Position numbers: made by a program. From an uncultured Holophaga sp. (lineage in GTDB: Bacteria; Acidobacteriota; Holophagae; Holophagales; Holophagaceae), in contig OY761614.1 of the NCBI GenBank assembly GCA_963664825.1, positions 1,952,001 through 2,016,000 of the forward strand: a DNA stretch of 64,000 bases, read 5' to 3'. Below, in pieces: positions 18,001 through 36,000 of this stretch. Within the stretch, counting starts at the first letter, position 1. The number at the start of each line of letters is the position of its first letter.

Positions 18001-21000
18001 CATTACCTTCAATTGGATGCCTGTCTGGGATGGCCGGGTCGAATTCAGGTCCCTGGAGACACTCCTCGCCGAAGGTGAGCGCGCCATCGCCGCTGAACGG
18101 GAAGCGAAAAGGACGAAGGATAAGGGGAACAAAAAAAAAGAGCAGCAACGGCCAAGTCCAACCGATGTTCCGGCAACTGGGAGAAAATGACCGTCGCCCC
18201 GACGACTGGAACGAAGGGGCCTGCGCAGTAGGCGCATTTCGAGCCGTGATGCTCATGGGAATGTAAATTAGAGATCAAGGGAAGGTCATCGGGAACTGAG
18301 TCAGGAAGCCTCCCGGGTGAGGAGGGTGGAAACATCCCCCAACATGGGGTCGCTCGATTCCCCTCTTGAAGCCCGGCCCCCTTCCGTGGCCTTCTGGAGG
18401 GAGGTGCCGCGATGCCCCAGGCCCAAAAAACGATCCTCCAGACGCGCTCCCTGCGGGAGCAGGTCTATGACTATCTGCGCGGGGAGATGGCCAGCGGCGG
18501 GATGCAGCCGGGCTCCTTCCTGGACCTCAACGCCCTGGCCCTGCATCTGGGCATCAGTCGCACGCCCCTGCGGGATGCCCTGCTCCAGCTGGAGGTCGAA
18601 GGCTTCGTGGAGATCCTGCCCCGGCGGGGTTTCCGGTTGAAGCCTCTGGGTCTCGACGAGATCCGCAATATCTACCAGATCGTGGGGGCCCTGGAATCCG
18701 CTGCCCTGGCCACGGCGGGGCCCCGGCTGGGGAAGGCTGGGTTCGCGTCCATGAAGGCCGAGAATAAGGCCATGAGCCAGGCCATCCGGGCCGATGACTA
18801 CGAGGCCTTCTTCGCCCATAATCTCGCCTTCCACGGGATCTTCCTGGAGGCCAGCGGGAACCCGCGCATGGCTTCCCTGGTGCATTCACTGAAACAGCGT
18901 CTCTACGATTGGCCGCGCCGCAAGGTCTTCCTGAAGAGCTGGGAGGCCCGCTCGATCGAGGAACATGCCCGCCTCCTGGCGCTGATGGAGAAGGGGAAGT
19001 TCGAGGAGGCCGCGGCCTACCACCGGGATGTGCACTGGTCCTTCGAGGTGCAGGAGCCCTTCGTGCGGGTGTATTACCTGACGGACCGGGCCGAGTGAAG
19101 GGGAGCCTCCACTCAGGATCTACTCCCGGTTGTTCGTGTACTTCGTGATGAGCTTTTCCCGCAGCCGGATGTAGAGGCCCGGCACCTGTTTCTGGATCCC
19201 GACGCAGAATTCGGTGAGGAATTTTTTCGCGGCCGCCGGGTCCTTGCGATGCAGCTCCAGGGCCTCGGCCTCCAGGGCGGGCAGCCGCTCCTGGATGCTC
19301 CGCTCGAAGGGATCCCGGGCCTCGCGCACATCCCGGATGGCGTCCTGGAAGCGCAGGTTGGCCAGGTTGTCCACGAAGTCGATGGTCCATCGCGCGCTGG
19401 CGTCGCTGTAGGCCTCGGGATCATAGATCTGGTAGCTGGGAGCCGTGTCCGTGACGCCCGCATACATGGGCACGTAGGGGCTGATGGCCGGGTTGTCCAA
19501 GTAGACCCAGTAGAGGCCTCCGATGCTGTCGGGCAGCCAGCCCCGCAGCTGGCAGACCATGCCGTAGTGGTCGCGATGGCGAGCCACCGGTCGGCGGTAG
19601 GTGATCTTGAGGAGGGCCCTCAGGTCCTTGCCGGGAAAGGGCGTGGCCAGGGGGCTTCGCGTCAGGCCACCCTTGGCATCCGCGACCTGCCAGGCGGGGT
19701 CCGAGGCCATATCGTAGATGCTGCCTTCCATGGTGGAGCGCTGGAAGGCGATGACATCCTGCACGGAGATCTTCTTCTCGGGTCTGAGGGAGAAGGGATA
19801 GATGGCGAGGGGTTCCACCGTCTGGAAGTAGGGACTGATGCCCTTGAGGGGCTCGGTTGGGTTGAGCCTGCGATCGGGCCAGGGGTGGCCGTTGGGCTTG
19901 AGGTTCGGCGCGAAGGTGGTGGCGAAGAGCCAGAAACGGCCCGTGGCGAATTCCTCGGGCAGGGGCGTGTAGGCGTCCTGCCAGATGAAGGGACGTCCCG
20001 CTTTGGGGTCGAACCAGCCCCGGTCAATGGCCTCCTGCTGGTAGTTCTTGGAGACGAGGAAGCGGGAGGCATCCTTCGGATCGATGCCCTTGATGATGCT
20101 CCAGTTGGGGATGAGCAGGGCTTCGTCATCGGGAATGCGCTGGGCGGCCCAGATGGCGCCGGGCTTGCCCCCGGCCTTCTTCCAGCCTGGTCCCACCGAG
20201 AAGACCTCGAAGACCCAGGCCTCCTCGGTGTCGCCGATGACGAGGGATTCCGAACCATCCGGAGAGGGGAGGAAGCCGTAGGTCTCCATGAGCTGGCCCA
20301 CGAGGCGGACCGCATCCTTGGCCTTGCGGCAGCGCTGGAGGGCGAAGACCTGGGCCTGTTCGATGGTCATGATCTGTTCGCCCGCGCCCTTGGCCACGGC
20401 GAGCTCGGGGCGCTGGCTCGTGGTGCTCTCGACGATGGCGAGCTGGTACTCGTTCATGTGGGAATAGGCGGACTGGAAGTAGGTGTAGGTTCGGGCTACC
20501 TGGGGTATGTAGCCGAGGATCTCCCCGGGACTGGCCAGGGGCCGGGAGGGATCCTGGAGGCCCCAGCCCACGGGAGCCTTCTCGCCGGCCCCGAAGGCAC
20601 GCCCTGGCACGACCCGAATGCGCGAATCGGGGCCACAGTCCGTGTGGGAGAGAATCACGGAGCCGTCCACCGTGGCCTTCTTGCCCGCGGCGATGACGGT
20701 GCAGGGCTGCAGGGTGAGGGACGCCACCAGCCATGTGAAGAGGATTACCAGGGGCTTTTTCATGGGGTTCACCAAGTTCTTTTGGGTTCCAGGGCTGCGA
20801 AGGGGAAGTCTCCCACGGACCAGGGCTTCTAATGAAACATTGTCCACAAATTTGCGGAACTGATATATTAGATATCCAGAGTTTTTTGGAGGAGCCCCAT
20901 GTTTCCGAGCCAAACCTACCTGGAACGCCGCGCGCGCCTGCGGGCCCAGATGCAGGGCCAGAAGGGCCTCCTGCTCTTCCTGGGCAACGAGGATTCGCCC

Positions 21001-33000: not shown

Positions 33001-36000
33001 GCCGTCGAGGTCTGGTCCCGCCCCTTAGCCGATGGCTCTGCGGTGCTGGCCCTTTTCAATCGGGGTGAGGTGGAAGCCTCCGTGCGCTTCGAAGCTGCGG
33101 ATGCCGGTCTGGCCAGGTTCCTGAGCCTCCGGGATGTGTGGGCCCGCCGCGCATGGGAACCCGCGACCGGCACGGCCACGCTGCCCCCCCATGGTGTCCT
33201 GCTCCTGCGGGCCGCGGGGCCCCGCGGATAATCCCTGCGGTCGTTCGCCGACGTCCTGTGGCCCAGCGGTAGGGTGGAACAGAAGAGCCCGGCCTGGGCC
33301 GGGCTCTTCCGCAAAAGGCTTCCTTCCTACCTGTAGTTCTTGTGGAACTCCGCGAAGCGCTCCACCACTTCCTTCATCTTGTCGGTGGGGGGCAGGATGG
33401 TGGTGCGGAAGTGGGCTGTGCCGGGAACCTGGCCGAAGCCTGTGCCGGGGACCACGCAGATGCCCGTGGCCTCCAGGAGGGCCAGGCAGTATTCGTTATC
33501 GGTGCGGCCCTCGGGGATCTCGATGCGGGGGAAGGCGTACATCGCGCCGGCCACCACGTTGCATCGGACCCCAGGCACCTTGTTGAGGCCCTCGGCGAGG
33601 ATGATGGCGCGCTTCTTCATCTCGTTGAGGATGCCGTCGCGCTCCTTCAGGTAGAGCTCAAGGCTGGGCTCGCCGGCCTTGGGGGGGCGCACCATGCAGT
33701 AGGTGGCCACCTGGCCCGTGAGGTTGGAGCAGAGGCTCACGCTCTGCATCTTGGTGATCTGGGCGACCACATCCTCGGGGATATTGCGGATCTCCATGTA
33801 GCCGCCCCGCTGGCCGCATTCGCCCAGGAAGCCCTTGGAGCAGGAATGGAAGCTGAAGAGGCTGACATCGGTCTCCCGCTTATCGGCCATGACCTTGGCG
33901 AAGGAGATGAAGCGGTCCGTGGGGAGGTAGATGTTCTCCTGGTAGACCTCGTCGGCCAGGATGGCCAGGCCGTGCTCCTTGGCGAAGTCGATGACCATGG
34001 CGATATTGTCCCGGTCCAGCACGCTGCCCGTGGGATTGCCGGGGTTCAGCACGCAGATGCCCTTCACCTTCACACCGACACGCTTGGCCTCCTGGAGGCT
34101 CTCCTCCAGCATGGCGCGGCTGAGCTTCCAGTTGTGGGCCTCGTCCAGGTAGTAGCCCACCTGCTTGCCCTCGTAGAGCGTGAGGGTGGCGCTGTAGAGC
34201 GGGTACTGGGGGATGGGGATCATGATCCCGTCGTTGGGGCCGCTGATGAGGATGCGCAGGGCGGTCTGCACGCCCTTGGAGGCGCCGTCCGTGAGGTAGA
34301 TGGCTTCCGCGTCGGTCTCGATGCCGTCCCGCTCATGGATGAACTGGGCGACCGCTTCGCGGATGAAGCGCACGCCCTTGCTGTCGGAGTAGGCGCCAAC
34401 GCCGTGCTGGGTGCCCTTCAGGATGGCCTTGGCCGTGGCTAGGACATCGGCGGGGAAGAGCTGGGGGGCCTGTTCCAGGAGGGCCGGATACTGGCAGAGG
34501 GCGATCACCTGGCGCCCGTACGTGAGGGGCTTCTGGTCCAGGGCCTGGGGATTGCCGATATTGCAGTAGATGATCTCCCGGCCGGCGCCTTCGAGTTCCT
34601 TGGCTCGGGCTACGATGGCGCCGCGCACGGCGTATTCGGTCTCCAGGACGGCCTTGCCGAGATCCTTGAGCTGGATGGTCATGGGGATTCCTCTTCTGAG
34701 ACAGGCGTGATCGGGGCCTGGGGCCCATCTCTGAAATTCTGCGCTCCCGGCCGCGGGGGTTCAATGAGGGCCGCCGAGGTGTGACCGAATGCCGCAGGGG
34801 CTCAGGAGGGAACGCGAAGGAGAGCGAAGGGGGCTAAGAGCGCGAAGAACTGAAAGTCGTTGAGGCACCCCCTTGGCCTGAGGCTCCATTCGCGCCCTTC
34901 GCTTCCTTGGCGCTATTCGCGTTCTTTTTGGCCGATGGAGACCCGGCGCAATCTCCGGGATGCTTTCGGGCCTCGCGGCGCGAAGATGGAGGCTGTTCAC
35001 TGACAGGAGCCCCCATGCGACCCGAGCATCCCATCGTCCTCATCACCGGCGCCAGCGCAGGCTTCGGTGAAGCCACCGCCCGCCTGCTGGCCGCCCAGGG
35101 CTGTCACCTGATCCTGGGCGCCCGCCGGGTGGATCGCGTGAAGGCCCTGGCCGAGGAACTGGCCACCCAACATGGCGTGAAGACCTTTGCGGGGGAAGTC
35201 GACACCCGGGATACCGCCAGCGTGAACGCCTTCGTGGCGGCGGGAGCGAAGGCTCTTGGGGGCCTGCACGTGGTGGTGGCCAATGCGGGCCTAGCCTCGG
35301 GCGTCGACAAGATCTGGGAGATCCCCGATACGGATATGGAAGCCATGCTGCGCACCAACGTGGAAGGGGTGGTCAAGACCATCCGCGCCGCCCTCCCCTT
35401 TGTGCGCCAGAGCGGATGGGGCCACATCTTCTTCCTGGGCAGCACGGCGGGCCACTCCACCTACGAGGGCGGCGGCGTCTACTGCGCCACCAAACACGGC
35501 GTGAAGGCCCTGGCCCAGACCCTGCGTCTGGAACTCTGCGGCGAACCCATCCGCGTGACCAGCGTGGACCCCGGCATGGCGGAGACGGAATTCTCCCTGG
35601 TGCGCCTGAAGGACGAGGCCAAGGCTCAGGCCGTCTACAAGGGGCTGGAGCCCCTCCAGTCCCTGGATATCGCCGAGTGCATCCGCTGGGCCCTGGCTCT
35701 GCCCGATCACGTCAATATCGACGAGATGATCGTGAAGGGCCGGGATCAGGCCAGCCACACGGGGGCGAAGGTGCACCGAAGGGCCTGAGATCGTGAAGCG
35801 TGACGCCCGGGGTCCCGGTCCTGGGGCCTTCCCGGGAACTCCTGAGAAAATAATCAAGAAAGTCCTTTCCCGGGCCGTTGAGATATACGTGATGCATTCT
35901 TTCCGAGGCTGGTTCCTCTCCCTTGGGTCGGTCCTGGCCCTGGCTGCCTTCGGCGGGACGCCTCCCCTGAAGGCCCCTCCGGGGATCACAGCCTTCCGCA

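What a model noticed while it worked through the whole genome (the two positions that open the first line are those of the whole stretch)
19120..33231. Operon that couples deglycosylation and proteolysis of plant hydroxyproline-rich glycoproteins to the glycyl-radical hyd [...]
Seven abutting same-strand genes g01704-g01710 encode a cytoplasmic Xaa-Pro dipeptidase, the HypD activase, trans-4-hydroxy-L-proline dehydratase HypD, and four secreted enzymes: a GH127 beta-L-arabinofuranosidase, a DPP4-type peptidase, an anthrax-lethal-factor-like zinc peptidase and a GH27 alpha-galactosidase 48% identical to a plant enzyme; a secreted C69 dipeptidase lies upstream. I read it as a pathway for extensin-type glycoproteins: strip Hyp-O-arabinofuranosides and Ser-O-galactose, cut the Pro/Hyp-rich backbone, import X-Hyp peptides and ferment the hydroxyproline. 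HypD has been tied to collagen-derived Hyp in gut Clostridia; a plant cell-wall glycoprotein route in an anaerobic aci [...]
Evidence so far: genes.tsv: g01704-g01710 on the + strand, spacings -11 to +19 nt. NCBIfam equivalog trans-4-hydroxy-L-proline dehydratase (E 0); Swiss-Prot C. difficile HypD 51.9% full length, activase 42.8%, human prolidase 32%, guar alpha-galactosidase 47.8%; Pfam Beta-AFase-like_GH127_cat+Glyco_hydro127M+DUF6805, DPPIV_N+Peptidase_S9, ATLF 147-243. Signal-peptide-like N-ends on g01703 and g01707-g01710, none on the prolidase; HExxH at res 156 of g01709. neighbours.tsv: a Gly_radical gene within 2 genes of a GH127 gene in 201 species genomes overall, 0 of 132 in the order; GH127 in 0 of 8 genus genomes, ATLF in 0 of 132 family genomes. 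Paper search: none of 6 listings (of 22) holds the dehydratase with ex [...]
(Added by a program. Inside this text positions count along the whole contig: contig position 1,952,001 is position 1 of the stretch shown here. "Call 12" and the like, gene names such as g00115 and contig names such as C1 are that model's own, and its searches are not shown. The text may have been shortened before it was handed on; [...] marks where a part breaks off. The agent that wrote the report below was given it as the finding of a first reader that could run no searches.)

Follow-up and report, generated by a model that had tools for sequence, protein, structure and literature searches.

The report
Plant glycoprotein to hydroxyproline fermentation operon
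An anaerobic soil bacterium has placed enzymes that strip plant-type sugars and cut proline-rich protein chains directly behind its oxygen-free hydroxyproline-degrading enzyme, giving a candidate complete gene set for feeding on plant cell-wall glycoproteins.

Summary
The seven abutting + strand genes are real. They encode an M24 prolidase, the HypD activase, HypD, a beta-L-arabinofuranosidase, an S9 DPP-IV, an ATLF-like zinc peptidase and a GH27 alpha-galactosidase. The C69 dipeptidase is divergent, on the minus strand.

Two labels need correcting. The "GH127" enzyme is GH146-type (nearest solved chain 5opj, E 3.6e-130). The "anthrax-lethal-factor-like" peptidase is closest in fold to Pro-Pro endopeptidases, and belongs to an unnamed family with over 2,500 homologs.

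Comparative genomics supports the extensin reading:
- The same-genus genome G172 has the HypD core without the four exported genes.
- G406 has HypD-DPP4-ATLF. G408 has GH51-M24-GH127-DPP4-ATLF-GH27.
- Of the 80 closest GH146 orthologs, from several phyla, 13 have the ATLF-like peptidase nearby, and two polypeptides fuse it to a neighbouring enzyme.
- 13 of 80 lie beside aerobic hydroxyproline-catabolism genes, and 0 of 80 beside HypD.

The unmasking module therefore recurs, while the catabolic end differs between aerobes and this anaerobe. No canonical arabinose or galactose catabolic marker was found in this genome, so the sugars look like obstacles rather than food.

Substrates remain inferred; no biochemistry or expression data exist.

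The parts
18412..19098 (+). GntR/FCD-type transcription regulator, candidate regulator of the locus
   Evidence: NCBIfam GntR-family hits. A homolog lies beside the HypD cluster in G172 (85% id), G406 (80%) and the g2 genomes (50%).
19120..20763 (-). Exported C69-family dipeptidase, divergent from the operon
   Evidence: NF033678 C69_fam_dipept 133.8 bits, below its cut-off of 250. Translation shows a hydrophobic leader ending just before a Cys. Conserved in G172 at 84% id. C69 homologs lie within about 300 bp of GH146 orthologs in L065 and L073.
20764..20898 (.). Divergent intergenic region between C69 and prolidase, with one promoter-like site at 20840-20869 (+)
   Evidence: The number of promoter-like sites in the region is no higher than in shuffles, so only the position is suggestive.
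20899..22287 (+). Cytoplasmic M24 Xaa-Pro peptidase (prolidase/aminopeptidase P type)
   Evidence: PF00557+PF05195. NCBIfam Xaa-Pro aminopeptidase and dipeptidase models match below their cut-offs. No leader at the N-end. Conserved beside HypD in G172, G338, G371 and G406.
22280..23179 (+). Glycyl-radical enzyme activase (radical SAM)
   Evidence: TIGR02494 333.1 bits (cut-off 174). The HypD-activase equivalog scores 326.2, below its cut-off of 425.
23176..25536 (+). trans-4-hydroxy-L-proline dehydratase HypD
   Evidence: NF043068 1196.8 bits, over the cut-off of 1100. Gapless alignment to solved HypD 6vxc, E 1.5e-285; the next enzyme type scores 1e-144. The GCSGCVE and RVAGYS motifs are kept.
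25526..27844 (+). Exported GH146-type beta-L-arabinofuranosidase (clan of GH127) with a C-terminal DUF6805 domain
   Evidence: Pfam PF07944+PF20736+PF20620. Best solved match is 5opj/6yqh/8qf8 over residues 28-768, E 3.6e-130, against 5.9e-10 for GH127 3wkw. The E-x-C and C-C motifs are aligned and kept.
27864..30098 (+). Exported S9 dipeptidyl-peptidase IV-type (or prolyl tripeptidyl) peptidase
   Evidence: PF00930+PF00326. Best solved matches are bacterial DPP IV 5yp1 and 2ecf, E 1e-48. It lies directly upstream of the ATLF-like gene in G406, G408 and 3 of 9 metagenome loci, with a convergent fragment in a fourth.
30113..31696 (+). Exported two-domain zinc peptidase, Pro-Pro-endopeptidase-like; domain 1 has HEFSH, domain 2 has no HExxH
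   Evidence: PF07737 32.2 bits. Sequence hit to PPEP-2 6fpc, E 8e-4. AF2 model with pLDDT 87; the top-ranked Foldseek hits are all PPEP-1/2/3 chains, ahead of lethal factor from rank 38. Invariant H156 E157 H160 Y194 E201 E205.
31693..33231 (+). Exported GH27 alpha-galactosidase with an unassigned 150-residue N-terminal extension
   Evidence: PF16499+PF17801 from residue 157. Best solved matches are plant alpha-galactosidases 6f4c (3.3e-100) and 1uas. The KYD-x-C and WRTTGDI motifs are aligned and kept. The N-end has an RR-containing leader.
33327..34682 (-). Class I/II aminotransferase, conserved neighbour of the HypD cluster; role unknown
   Evidence: PF00155. The alanine aminotransferase model matches below its cut-off. 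Adjacent to the cluster in G172, G338, G371 and G406 at 72-91% id.
34907..35788 (+). YdfG-like short-chain dehydrogenase, conserved neighbour; role unknown
   Evidence: PF00106. NF007829 178.7 bits, below its cut-off. Conserved beside the aminotransferase in the same four genomes.

Best explanation
The locus is a hydroxyproline-glycopeptide utilisation operon made of two layers. Layer 1 is a core kept across the family: a GntR regulator, an exported C69 dipeptidase, a cytoplasmic M24 prolidase, the activase and HypD. This layer takes in small X-Hyp/X-Pro peptides, frees Hyp and dehydrates it without oxygen to pyrroline-5-carboxylate. Layer 2 is four exported enzymes fused onto the 3' end of hypD in this species. 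They unmask Hyp in plant or algal extensin-type glycoproteins. The GH146-type beta-L-arabinofuranosidase removes beta-L-Araf, including the residue bound to Hyp. The GH27 alpha-galactosidase removes Ser-O-alpha-Gal. The Pro-Pro-endopeptidase-like zinc enzyme cuts inside Pro/Hyp runs. The DPP-IV-type peptidase trims the fragments to X-Pro/X-Hyp dipeptides. Shown here: the gene identities, the motifs, and the recurrent gene linkage and fusions. Inferred: every substrate, export to the periplasm or beyond, co-transcription, and the fate of the product. No marker of canonical arabinose or galactose catabolism was found in the genome, so the sugars are probably removed to reach the amino acid rather than eaten.
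For: Identity of the parts.

Layering within the family:
- Same-genus G172 has GntR-C69-prolidase-activase-HypD, then an aminotransferase and an acyl-CoA dehydrogenase in place of the four genes.
- The g2 genomes carry a POT peptide transporter between GntR and the activase.
- The ATLF-like gene is found in 3 of 61 family genomes, G000 included.
- G406 has prolidase-activase-HypD-DPP4-ATLF. G408 has GH51-M24-GH127-DPP4-ATLF-GH27.

Across phyla, among the 80 closest GH146 orthologs:
- An ATLF-like gene lies within 10 kb in 13 of 80, and within 1 kb in 7.
- In L084 the GH146 and ATLF-like parts form one 1033-aa reading frame. In L054 a DUF5695 domain is followed by two ATLF-like domains in one 1514-aa frame.
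- At least one aerobic Hyp-catabolism family is present in 13 of 80 loci, and at least three of five in 6 of 80. The epimerase-family genes score as 4-hydroxyproline epimerase (412-439 bits, cut-offs 442-450; 204-214 bits for proline racemase).
- M24 is present in 5 of 80, C69 in 2 and S9 in 2.

Other support:
- A second HypD linkage in the phylum: G207 has HypD, an S15 X-Pro dipeptidyl peptidase, two GH127 genes and a GH51-like gene within 25 kb. G167 and G382 have the same spacing.
- Passages of PMC10850190 state that the GH146 enzymes XeHypBA1 and Bll4HypBA1 cleave Araf-beta1-Hyp.
- No AraA_N, galactokinase-signature or GalT match was found in the 96.55%-complete single-contig genome.
Against: - No biochemical or expression data exist; no RNA run is listed.
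- 0 of the 80 closest GH146 orthologs have HypD within 10 kb. Most of them (55 of 80) have neither a peptidase nor a Hyp gene nearby. Their commonest partner is DUF5695 (33 of 80). The orthogroup is therefore not Hyp-specific.
- The nearest solved enzyme is described as acting on arabinan-derived oligosaccharides.
- This locus has no alpha-L-arabinofuranosidase, and no GH51 or DUF5695 homolog was found in the genome. The alpha-1,3-Araf cap of Ara4 chains therefore has no evident remover.
- G406 links HypD-DPP4-ATLF with no glycosidase, so the peptidases do not need glycosylated substrates.
- No transporter lies in the operon.
- The product's fate is unclear: no P5CR_dimer or Pro_dh match, and the best glutamate-semialdehyde dehydrogenase match scores 363 bits against a cut-off of 648.
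Confidence: 0.65

Rival explanations
1. The peptidases feed HypD from unglycosylated Hyp/Pro-rich peptides such as collagen or gelatin fragments, proline-rich proteins or bacterial collagen-like proteins. The two glycosidases are a later add-on aimed at other plant glycans and have no mechanistic tie to Hyp.
For: G406 has HypD-DPP4-ATLF without any glycosidase. The family core has only peptidases, plus a POT transporter in g2. HypD has so far been discussed mostly with collagen-derived Hyp (passages of PMC6219649).
Against: In G000 the GH146-type gene overlaps the hypD stop by 11 nt and lies between hypD and DPP4. G408 interleaves GH51, M24, GH127, DPP4, ATLF and GH27 on one strand. GH146-ATLF and DUF5695-ATLF fusions exist. 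No arabinose or galactose catabolic marker was found that would give the glycosidases a separate purpose.
Confidence: 0.15
2. The glycosidases trim arabinogalactan-protein or pectic arabinan side chains (beta-1,3-Araf or beta-1,2-Araf caps, alpha-Gal or beta-L-Arap ends), not extensin-type Hyp-arabinosides. Their place beside HypD reflects a general plant-detritus locus.
For: The nearest solved enzyme is described as acting on arabinan-derived tetraose and beta-1,2-arabinobiose, and another GH146 enzyme is beta-1,3-specific on AGPs. GH27 also holds beta-L-arabinopyranosidases (3a21, 4nx0). GH146 orthologs often sit with GH51 and sugar-kinase genes.
Against: No beta-galactanase or galactosidase that would be needed to reach AGP-bound Hyp is in the locus. 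The GH27 is far closer to plant alpha-galactosidases (3.3e-100) than to arabinopyranosidases (4e-72 and 1.6e-27). The links to Pro-specific peptidases and Hyp catabolism are hard to explain for a pectin enzyme.
Confidence: 0.12
3. The adjacency is a chance insertion of a mobile four-gene block into a permissive site, with no shared regulation or pathway.
For: The block is absent from the same-genus genome G172, and the ATLF-like gene was not found in 6 of 6 other genus genomes searched. The site holds different genes in G172.
Against: No mobile-element genes or composition shift are seen: GC is 0.645-0.671 across the block. Gene overlaps of 4-11 nt join the block to hypD. HypD-DPP4-ATLF recurs in another genus at identities like those of the core genes. 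A relative about 7% diverged keeps the junction.
Confidence: 0.05

Closest known systems
HypD-based anaerobic hydroxyproline utilisation of gut Clostridia (hypD-activase-P5C reductase)
   Same: HypD equivalog over its cut-off, adjacent activase, and the same radical and thiyl motifs.
   Different: No P5C reductase gene lies in the locus, and no P5CR_dimer match was found in the genome. Peptidases and glycosidases are built into the operon. The review PMC6219649 (passages read) names HRGPs as a possible Hyp source and calls the releasing enzymes an open challenge.
Bifidobacterium longum HRGP beta-arabinooligosaccharide system (HypBA2 GH121, HypBA1 GH127, HypAA; Bll4HypBA1 GH146)
   Same: Cysteine-zinc beta-L-arabinofuranosidase of clan GH127/GH146. 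GH146 members remove Araf bound to Hyp (passages of PMC10850190).
   Different: That system harvests the arabinose and has a sugar ABC transporter (abstract listing of the GH121 structure paper). This locus has no GH121, no sugar transporter and no arabinose isomerase match, and it is wired to peptidases and Hyp catabolism.
Xanthomonas euvesicatoria xehypBA1/BA2/AA cluster
   Same: A GH146 enzyme acts on Hyp-linked Araf. A prolyl oligopeptidase gene lies beside the glycosidases, and the authors suggest it may degrade HRGPs (passages of PMC6085000).
   Different: That peptidase is a pseudogene, and the passages found with my search terms mention no Hyp catabolic genes. Here the peptidases are intact and joined to HypD.
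Pro-Pro endopeptidases PPEP-1/2/3 (M34 family)
   Same: Best fold matches (TM to target 0.54-0.66, probability 1.00) and the best sequence hit. HExxH plus downstream Tyr and Glu are kept.
   Different: The window protein has 527 residues and two tandem copies of the fold, the second without HExxH, where PPEPs have about 200 residues. Sequence identity is 13-18%. Its gene context is glycosidases and Hyp genes. Specificity is untested.
Aerobic trans-4-hydroxy-L-proline pathway (epimerase, D-Hyp dehydrogenase, deaminase, semialdehyde dehydrogenase; pathway recalled from general knowledge)
   Same: It stands in the same position relative to the GH146/ATLF-like/M24 module in loci such as L048, L113, L076 and L119.
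   Different: None of these genes is found in G000 (the epimerase query finds nothing). HypD takes their place.
GH146 chain 5opj/6yqh/8qf8 (BT0349, per PMC10850190)
   Same: Full-length match, including the C-terminal jelly-roll that covers the active site, which suggests small substrates.
   Different: That enzyme lies in a pectin utilisation locus and acts on arabinan oligosaccharides. This one lies among peptidases.

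Membership tests
trans-4-hydroxy-L-proline dehydratase (HypD, NF043068) | Whole-protein score over the curated equivalog cut-off | tested here: met
   1196.8 bits against a cut-off of 1100.
trans-4-hydroxy-L-proline dehydratase (HypD, NF043068) | Glycyl radical motif, thiyl Cys with neighbouring Glu, and substrate-contact Asp/His (residue roles recalled from the literature) | tested here: met
   RVAGYS, GCSGCVE, and the aligned D274 and H156 are identical to 6vxc in a gapless alignment.
trans-4-hydroxy-L-proline dehydratase (HypD, NF043068) | Adjacent dedicated activase | tested here: met
   TIGR02494 over its cut-off. The gene overlaps the hypD start by 4 nt.
GH127 proper (HypBA1 type) | Closest to GH127 enzymes and carrying the GH127 C-terminal domain | tested here: not met
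   GH127 3wkw scores E 5.9e-10 against 3.6e-130 for the GH146 chain 5opj. There is no PF20737; DUF6805 takes its place.
GH146 / clan of cysteine beta-L-arabinofuranosidases | Zn-binding Glu-x-Cys and Cys-Cys (nucleophile) motifs and the acid/base Glu | tested here: met
   ETCN, TCCVGSG and the upstream Glu align with identical residues of 5opj. Residue roles are taken from PMC10850190.
GH146 / clan of cysteine beta-L-arabinofuranosidases | Hydrolysis of beta-L-Araf, and linkage preference (Hyp-bound, beta-1,2 or beta-1,3) | not testable with these tools
   Needs an enzyme assay.
Pro-Pro endopeptidase (PPEP) / M34 | HExxH with downstream Tyr and Glu; PPEP fold | tested here: met
   H156 E157 H160 Y194 E201 E205 are invariant in 32 sequences. 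The top-ranked fold hits are all PPEPs.
Pro-Pro endopeptidase (PPEP) / M34 | Cleavage between two prolines | not testable with these tools
   No assay. The context of Pro-specific peptidases is only suggestive.
Pro-Pro endopeptidase (PPEP) / M34 | Single-domain secreted protein of about 200 residues | tested here: not met
   527 residues with two tandem domains.
GH27 alpha-galactosidase | Melibiase domain with nucleophile and acid/base Asp motifs (motif roles recalled) | tested here: met
   PF16499 232.7 bits. KYDLC and WRTTGDI align with 6f4c.
Dipeptidyl peptidase IV (S9B) | DPPIV_N propeller plus S9 catalytic domain | tested here: met
   PF00930 136.7 bits and PF00326 136.2 bits. Best solved matches are DPP IV enzymes. 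The catalytic triad was not checked residue by residue.
Xaa-Pro dipeptidase (prolidase) | Score over an equivalog cut-off | tested here: not met
   144-165 bits against cut-offs of 339-465. It is an M24B member, but dipeptidase versus aminopeptidase P is undecided.

The most novel reading that the evidence does not exclude
The two-domain Pro-Pro-endopeptidase-like family has over 2,500 homologs, none carrying an informative name. It may be the missing backbone endopeptidase for Hyp/Pro runs of plant and algal cell-wall glycoproteins. Together with GH146-type arabinofuranosidases, and with DUF5695 in many soil bacteria, it would form a cross-phylum extensin-utilisation module. The catabolic end of this module is exchanged according to oxygen regime: HypD in anaerobes, the epimerase-oxidase route in aerobes. 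In this non-sugar-eating anaerobe the module would serve only to mine an amino acid.
Probability: 0.4. Interest if true: 0.8.

Novelty: new variant of a known kind. Interest (0 to 1): 0.7.

Why it matters
Hydroxyproline-rich glycoproteins are a large pool of organic nitrogen in plant litter. How bacteria free Hyp from them has been named an open problem (PMC6219649, passages read).

This locus and its relatives offer a concrete, testable gene set:
- a glycosidase that should cut the Araf-Hyp bond;
- an alpha-galactosidase for Ser-Gal;
- an uncharacterised endopeptidase family that may cut polyproline-type backbones;
- trimming peptidases;
- either an anoxic or an oxic Hyp pathway.

It also extends HypD ecology from gut collagen turnover to anoxic soils and sediments. 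It gives a functional lead for a large unnamed peptidase family and for DUF5695.

Tried and rejected
- Expression: no RNA holder is listed for the stretch, so co-transcription could not be examined.
- Promoter and terminator scans gave no more sites than shuffles.
- The reciprocal search from the ATLF-like protein in metagenome contigs returned only 9 loci, 7 of them under 8 kb. DPP4 was adjacent in 4 of 9, GH27 in 2 of 9, and HypD or GH127 in 0 of 9. This is too few and too short for a rate.
- DUF5695 has no solved relative by sequence.
- The fate of pyrroline-5-carboxylate could not be settled.
- I considered whether the four-gene block was gained in G000 or lost in its relatives. Identities to G406 (DPP4 78%, ATLF 71%) resemble those of the core genes (73-81%), so neither can be excluded. 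No tree was built.
It is not. In G280 the radical enzyme flanked by GH127 genes scores 537 bits on the HypD model and 851 on the general PFL2-3 model.
- Literature: HypD with GH127, 0 papers; hydroxyproline epimerase with arabinofuranosidase, 0 papers; hydroxyproline dehydratase with extensin, 1 paper. The library lacks most subscription journals, and the 2023 Bll4HypBA1 paper cited in PMC10850190 was not read.
- Earlier-notes look-ups by sequence and by genome gave nothing.

Full report
**What is there.** The window has about 65% G+C, so I chose among overlapping ORFs by third-position G+C and by family hits.

On the + strand lie:
- an M24 Xaa-Pro peptidase (20899-22287);
- a glycyl-radical activase (22280-23179);
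- HypD (23176-25536);
- a protein with the Pfam GH127 catalytic and middle domains plus DUF6805 (25526-27844);
- a DPPIV_N+S9 peptidase (27864-30098);
- a protein with a weak but over-threshold ATLF hit (30113-31696);
- a GH27 enzyme (31693-33231).

Neighbouring genes overlap by 4-11 nt or are 14-19 nt apart. The C69 dipeptidase (19120-20763) is on the minus strand, divergent from the prolidase gene. A GntR/FCD regulator (18412-19098) lies before it. Downstream lie an aminotransferase (minus strand) and a YdfG-like dehydrogenase.

By eye, C69, the arabinofuranosidase, DPP4, the zinc peptidase and GH27 begin with hydrophobic leaders, and the GH27 leader contains RR. The prolidase, activase and HypD do not. 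No signal-peptide predictor was available.

Contigs of run X3 reproduce the arrangement exactly. A contig of run X6, about 7% diverged, bridges the hypD/arabinofuranosidase junction.

**Identity of the parts.**

*HypD.* It passes the NCBIfam equivalog cut-off (1196.8 against 1100). It aligns without gaps to solved HypD 6vxc (E 1.5e-285), with the radical and thiyl motifs intact. The next enzyme type scores 1e-144.

*The 'GH127' protein.* It is GH146-type. It matches chain 5opj/6yqh/8qf8 over its whole length (E 3.6e-130), against 5.9e-10 for GH127 HypBA1, and the zinc and nucleophile motifs are kept. Passages of PMC10850190 say the following:
- this chain's enzyme founded GH146 and acts on arabinan-derived oligosaccharides and beta-1,2-arabinobiose;
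- its C-terminal jelly-roll covers the active site;
- two other GH146 enzymes, XeHypBA1 and Bll4HypBA1, cleave the Araf-beta1-Hyp bond.

*The ATLF-like protein.* It has two tandem domains, and only the first carries HExxH.
- Its best solved sequence match is Pro-Pro endopeptidase PPEP-2 (E 8e-4).
- An AlphaFold model built on 32 homologs (pLDDT 87, pTM 0.82) finds PPEP-1/2/3 chains as all of its top-ranked Foldseek hits. Lethal factor chains appear only from rank 38.
- The family is large: 2,524 proteins at E<=1e-5 among the 8,000 candidates scored, many about 60% identical. Among the 120 listed, the names given by sources are 'hypothetical protein' or evident misnomers.

*GH27.* It is nearest to plant alpha-galactosidases (3.3e-100) and keeps both Asp motifs.

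*The S9 enzyme.* It is nearest to bacterial DPP IV.

**Two layers within the family.**
- The same-genus genome G172 has GntR-C69-prolidase-activase-HypD at 80-86% identity. An aminotransferase and an acyl-CoA dehydrogenase stand where G000 has the four exported genes.
- Genomes of genus g2 have aminotransferase-SDR-prolidase-GntR-POT transporter-activase-HypD. This points to import of di- or tripeptides.
- The ATLF-like gene is found in 3 of 61 family genomes, G000 included, and in none of the 6 other genomes of its genus.
- G406, another genus, has prolidase-activase-HypD-DPP4-ATLF and then the same aminotransferase and SDR.
- G408, a third genus, has GH51-like arabinofuranosidase, M24, GH127, DPP4, ATLF and GH27 on one strand. 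Its HypD lies on another contig.

DPP4-ATLF is therefore a unit that joins HypD in two genera and joins arabinofuranosidases plus GH27 in two genera.

**Across phyla.** The 80 closest relatives of the arabinofuranosidase (51-72% identity) come from Acidobacteriota, Verrucomicrobiota, Abditibacteriota, Planctomycetota, Armatimonadota and others. I clustered the neighbouring ORFs and named representatives with Pfam and NCBIfam. 58 of the 80 loci have at least 10 kb of flank in total.

| Neighbour | Loci of 80 |
|---|---|
| DUF5695 | 33 (25 within 1 kb) |
| GH51 | 13-14 |
| ATLF-like | 13 (7 within 1 kb) |
| GalT | 10-11 |
| DHDPS-family | 8 |
| Aldehyde dehydrogenase | 8 |
| 4-Hyp-epimerase-like | 7 |
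| Pyr_redox_2 | 7 |
| DAO | 6 |
| M24 | 5 |
| C69 | 2 |
| S9 | 2 |
| HypD | 0 |

- At least three of the five aerobic Hyp families occur in 6 loci (L048, L058, L076, L086, L113, L119). These belong to at least two phyla and have different gene orders.
- In L048 and L113 the order is M24, ATLF-like, (GH51), GH127, GH146, epimerase, DAO, Pyr_redox_2, then the DHDPS-family and aldehyde dehydrogenase genes.
- Two fusions tie the glycosidase side to the peptidase. L084 encodes GH146 plus an ATLF-like domain in one 1033-aa frame. L054 encodes DUF5695 plus two ATLF-like domains in one 1514-aa frame.
- 55 of the 80 loci show neither peptidases nor Hyp genes. The orthogroup is therefore not restricted to Hyp glycopeptides.

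**HypD and arabinofuranosidases elsewhere in the phylum.** HypD passes its cut-off in 77 of 401 sampled genomes. 44 of the 76 others also have a GH127-family gene. On the same contig and within 30 kb I see:
- G000, where the two genes are adjacent;
- G207, G167 and G382 of one family, at 11-13 kb;
- G228, at 28 kb.

In G207 the stretch holds HypD, an S15 X-Pro dipeptidyl peptidase, an isomerase and an FGGY kinase, two GH127 genes and a GH51-like gene. Many of these assemblies are fragmented, so these are lower bounds.

**How it most likely works.**
1. Exported enzymes act on Hyp-rich glycopeptides. The arabinofuranosidase and GH27 remove beta-L-Araf and alpha-Gal. The PPEP-like enzyme cuts within Pro/Hyp runs. 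DPP4 and C69 reduce the fragments to dipeptides.
2. A peptide permease encoded elsewhere takes them up. POT homologs at 31-39% identity exist elsewhere in the genome.
3. The cytoplasmic prolidase frees Hyp.
4. HypD dehydrates it.

All substrate assignments and the export are inferences.

The genome is one contig, 96.55% complete. It gives no match for AraA_N, the galactokinase signature, GalT, GH51, DUF5695 or the Hyp epimerase. The sugars therefore seem to be removed rather than used, although non-canonical sugar routes were not excluded.

The product's fate is open. There is no P5CR_dimer or Pro_dh match, and only sub-threshold semialdehyde dehydrogenase matches. The conserved aminotransferase and dehydrogenase next door are candidates without evidence.

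**Comparison with what is known.**
- The 2018 HypD commentary (PMC6219649, passages read) proposes HRGPs as a Hyp source and says that the releasing enzymes are unidentified.
- The Xanthomonas paper (PMC6085000, passages read) notes a prolyl oligopeptidase pseudogene beside its arabinofuranosidase genes.
- A 2015 in-silico study (PMC4454575, passages read) lists GH127 as an extensin enzyme in anaerobic Latescibacteria. The terms 'glycyl radical' and 'prolidase' do not occur in its text.
- Searches for HypD with GH127, and for hydroxyproline epimerase with arabinofuranosidase, found no paper.
My 80-locus survey reaches the same pairing independently in other phyla.

**Verdict.** The locus is a new variant that combines two known systems, HypD catabolism and HRGP deglycosylation. 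It also brings in an uncharacterised peptidase family as a likely key player.

Noticed in passing
L059:12268-14994; L047:5972-8839; L054:4418-8962; L085:8918-14530 and others: DUF5695 (about 900 aa, no solved relative by sequence) is the commonest neighbour of the GH146 orthologs: 33 of 80 loci, 25 within 1 kb. In L054 it is fused to two ATLF-like domains. It is a strong candidate for an unrecognised glycosidase of the same pathway. It is absent from the window's genome.
   Followed up: partly
L042 (G280:C1:352000-371999), 10862-13300 minus strand: A glycyl-radical enzyme that is not HypD (537 bits on the HypD model, 851 on PFL2-3; PRK09983 847, below its cut-off of 1109). It has its own activase, a zinc alcohol dehydrogenase and an MFS transporter, and is flanked by two GH127-family genes, one 41% identical to the window's enzyme. 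The same genome has a true HypD elsewhere.
   Followed up: partly
whole genome G000: No match to P5CR_dimer (ProC) or Pro_dh (PutA) in a single-contig genome that is 96.55% complete. How it makes proline and what it does with the HypD product are unclear.
   Followed up: partly
window 31693-32150 (GH27 residues 1-152): The GH27 enzyme carries about 120 residues between its leader and the catalytic domain that match no Pfam family and none of the solved GH27 chains.
   Followed up: no
window 30900-31696 (ATLF-like residues about 265-527): The second domain of the zinc peptidase repeats the PPEP-like fold but has no HExxH. It is conserved across the two-domain family and could be a substrate-binding pseudo-enzyme domain.
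   Followed up: partly
genome C1:3425054-3428123 (outside the window): A second M24 peptidase (32% id) lies directly beside a second S9 DPP-type peptidase (29% id).
   Followed up: no
window 13132-16593 (+) and L123:161-3364: A protein of about 1,100 aa with a weak Phospholipase B hit (plus CBM_4_9 in G406) lies upstream of the GntR gene in both G000 and G406. A 416-aa ORF with no family (16940-18190) follows it in G000.
   Followed up: no
L059:15053-18500, L081:7927-11330, L079, L083, L068, L087, L105: In Pyrinomonadaceae-type loci the GH146-DUF5695 pair is followed by a GalT-like uridylyltransferase, an inositol-monophosphatase-like protein and a GHMP sugar kinase. This suggests a Leloir-like salvage of the released sugar.
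   Followed up: no
L035:8504-9787 (G338) and L036: A POT-family peptide transporter sits between the GntR gene and the HypD activase in genus g2. G000 has no such gene in its locus.
   Followed up: partly
window 35793-38981 and L123:17306-20000: A Reg_prop/Y_Y_Y/GGDEF diguanylate cyclase follows the dehydrogenase in both G000 and G406.
   Followed up: no
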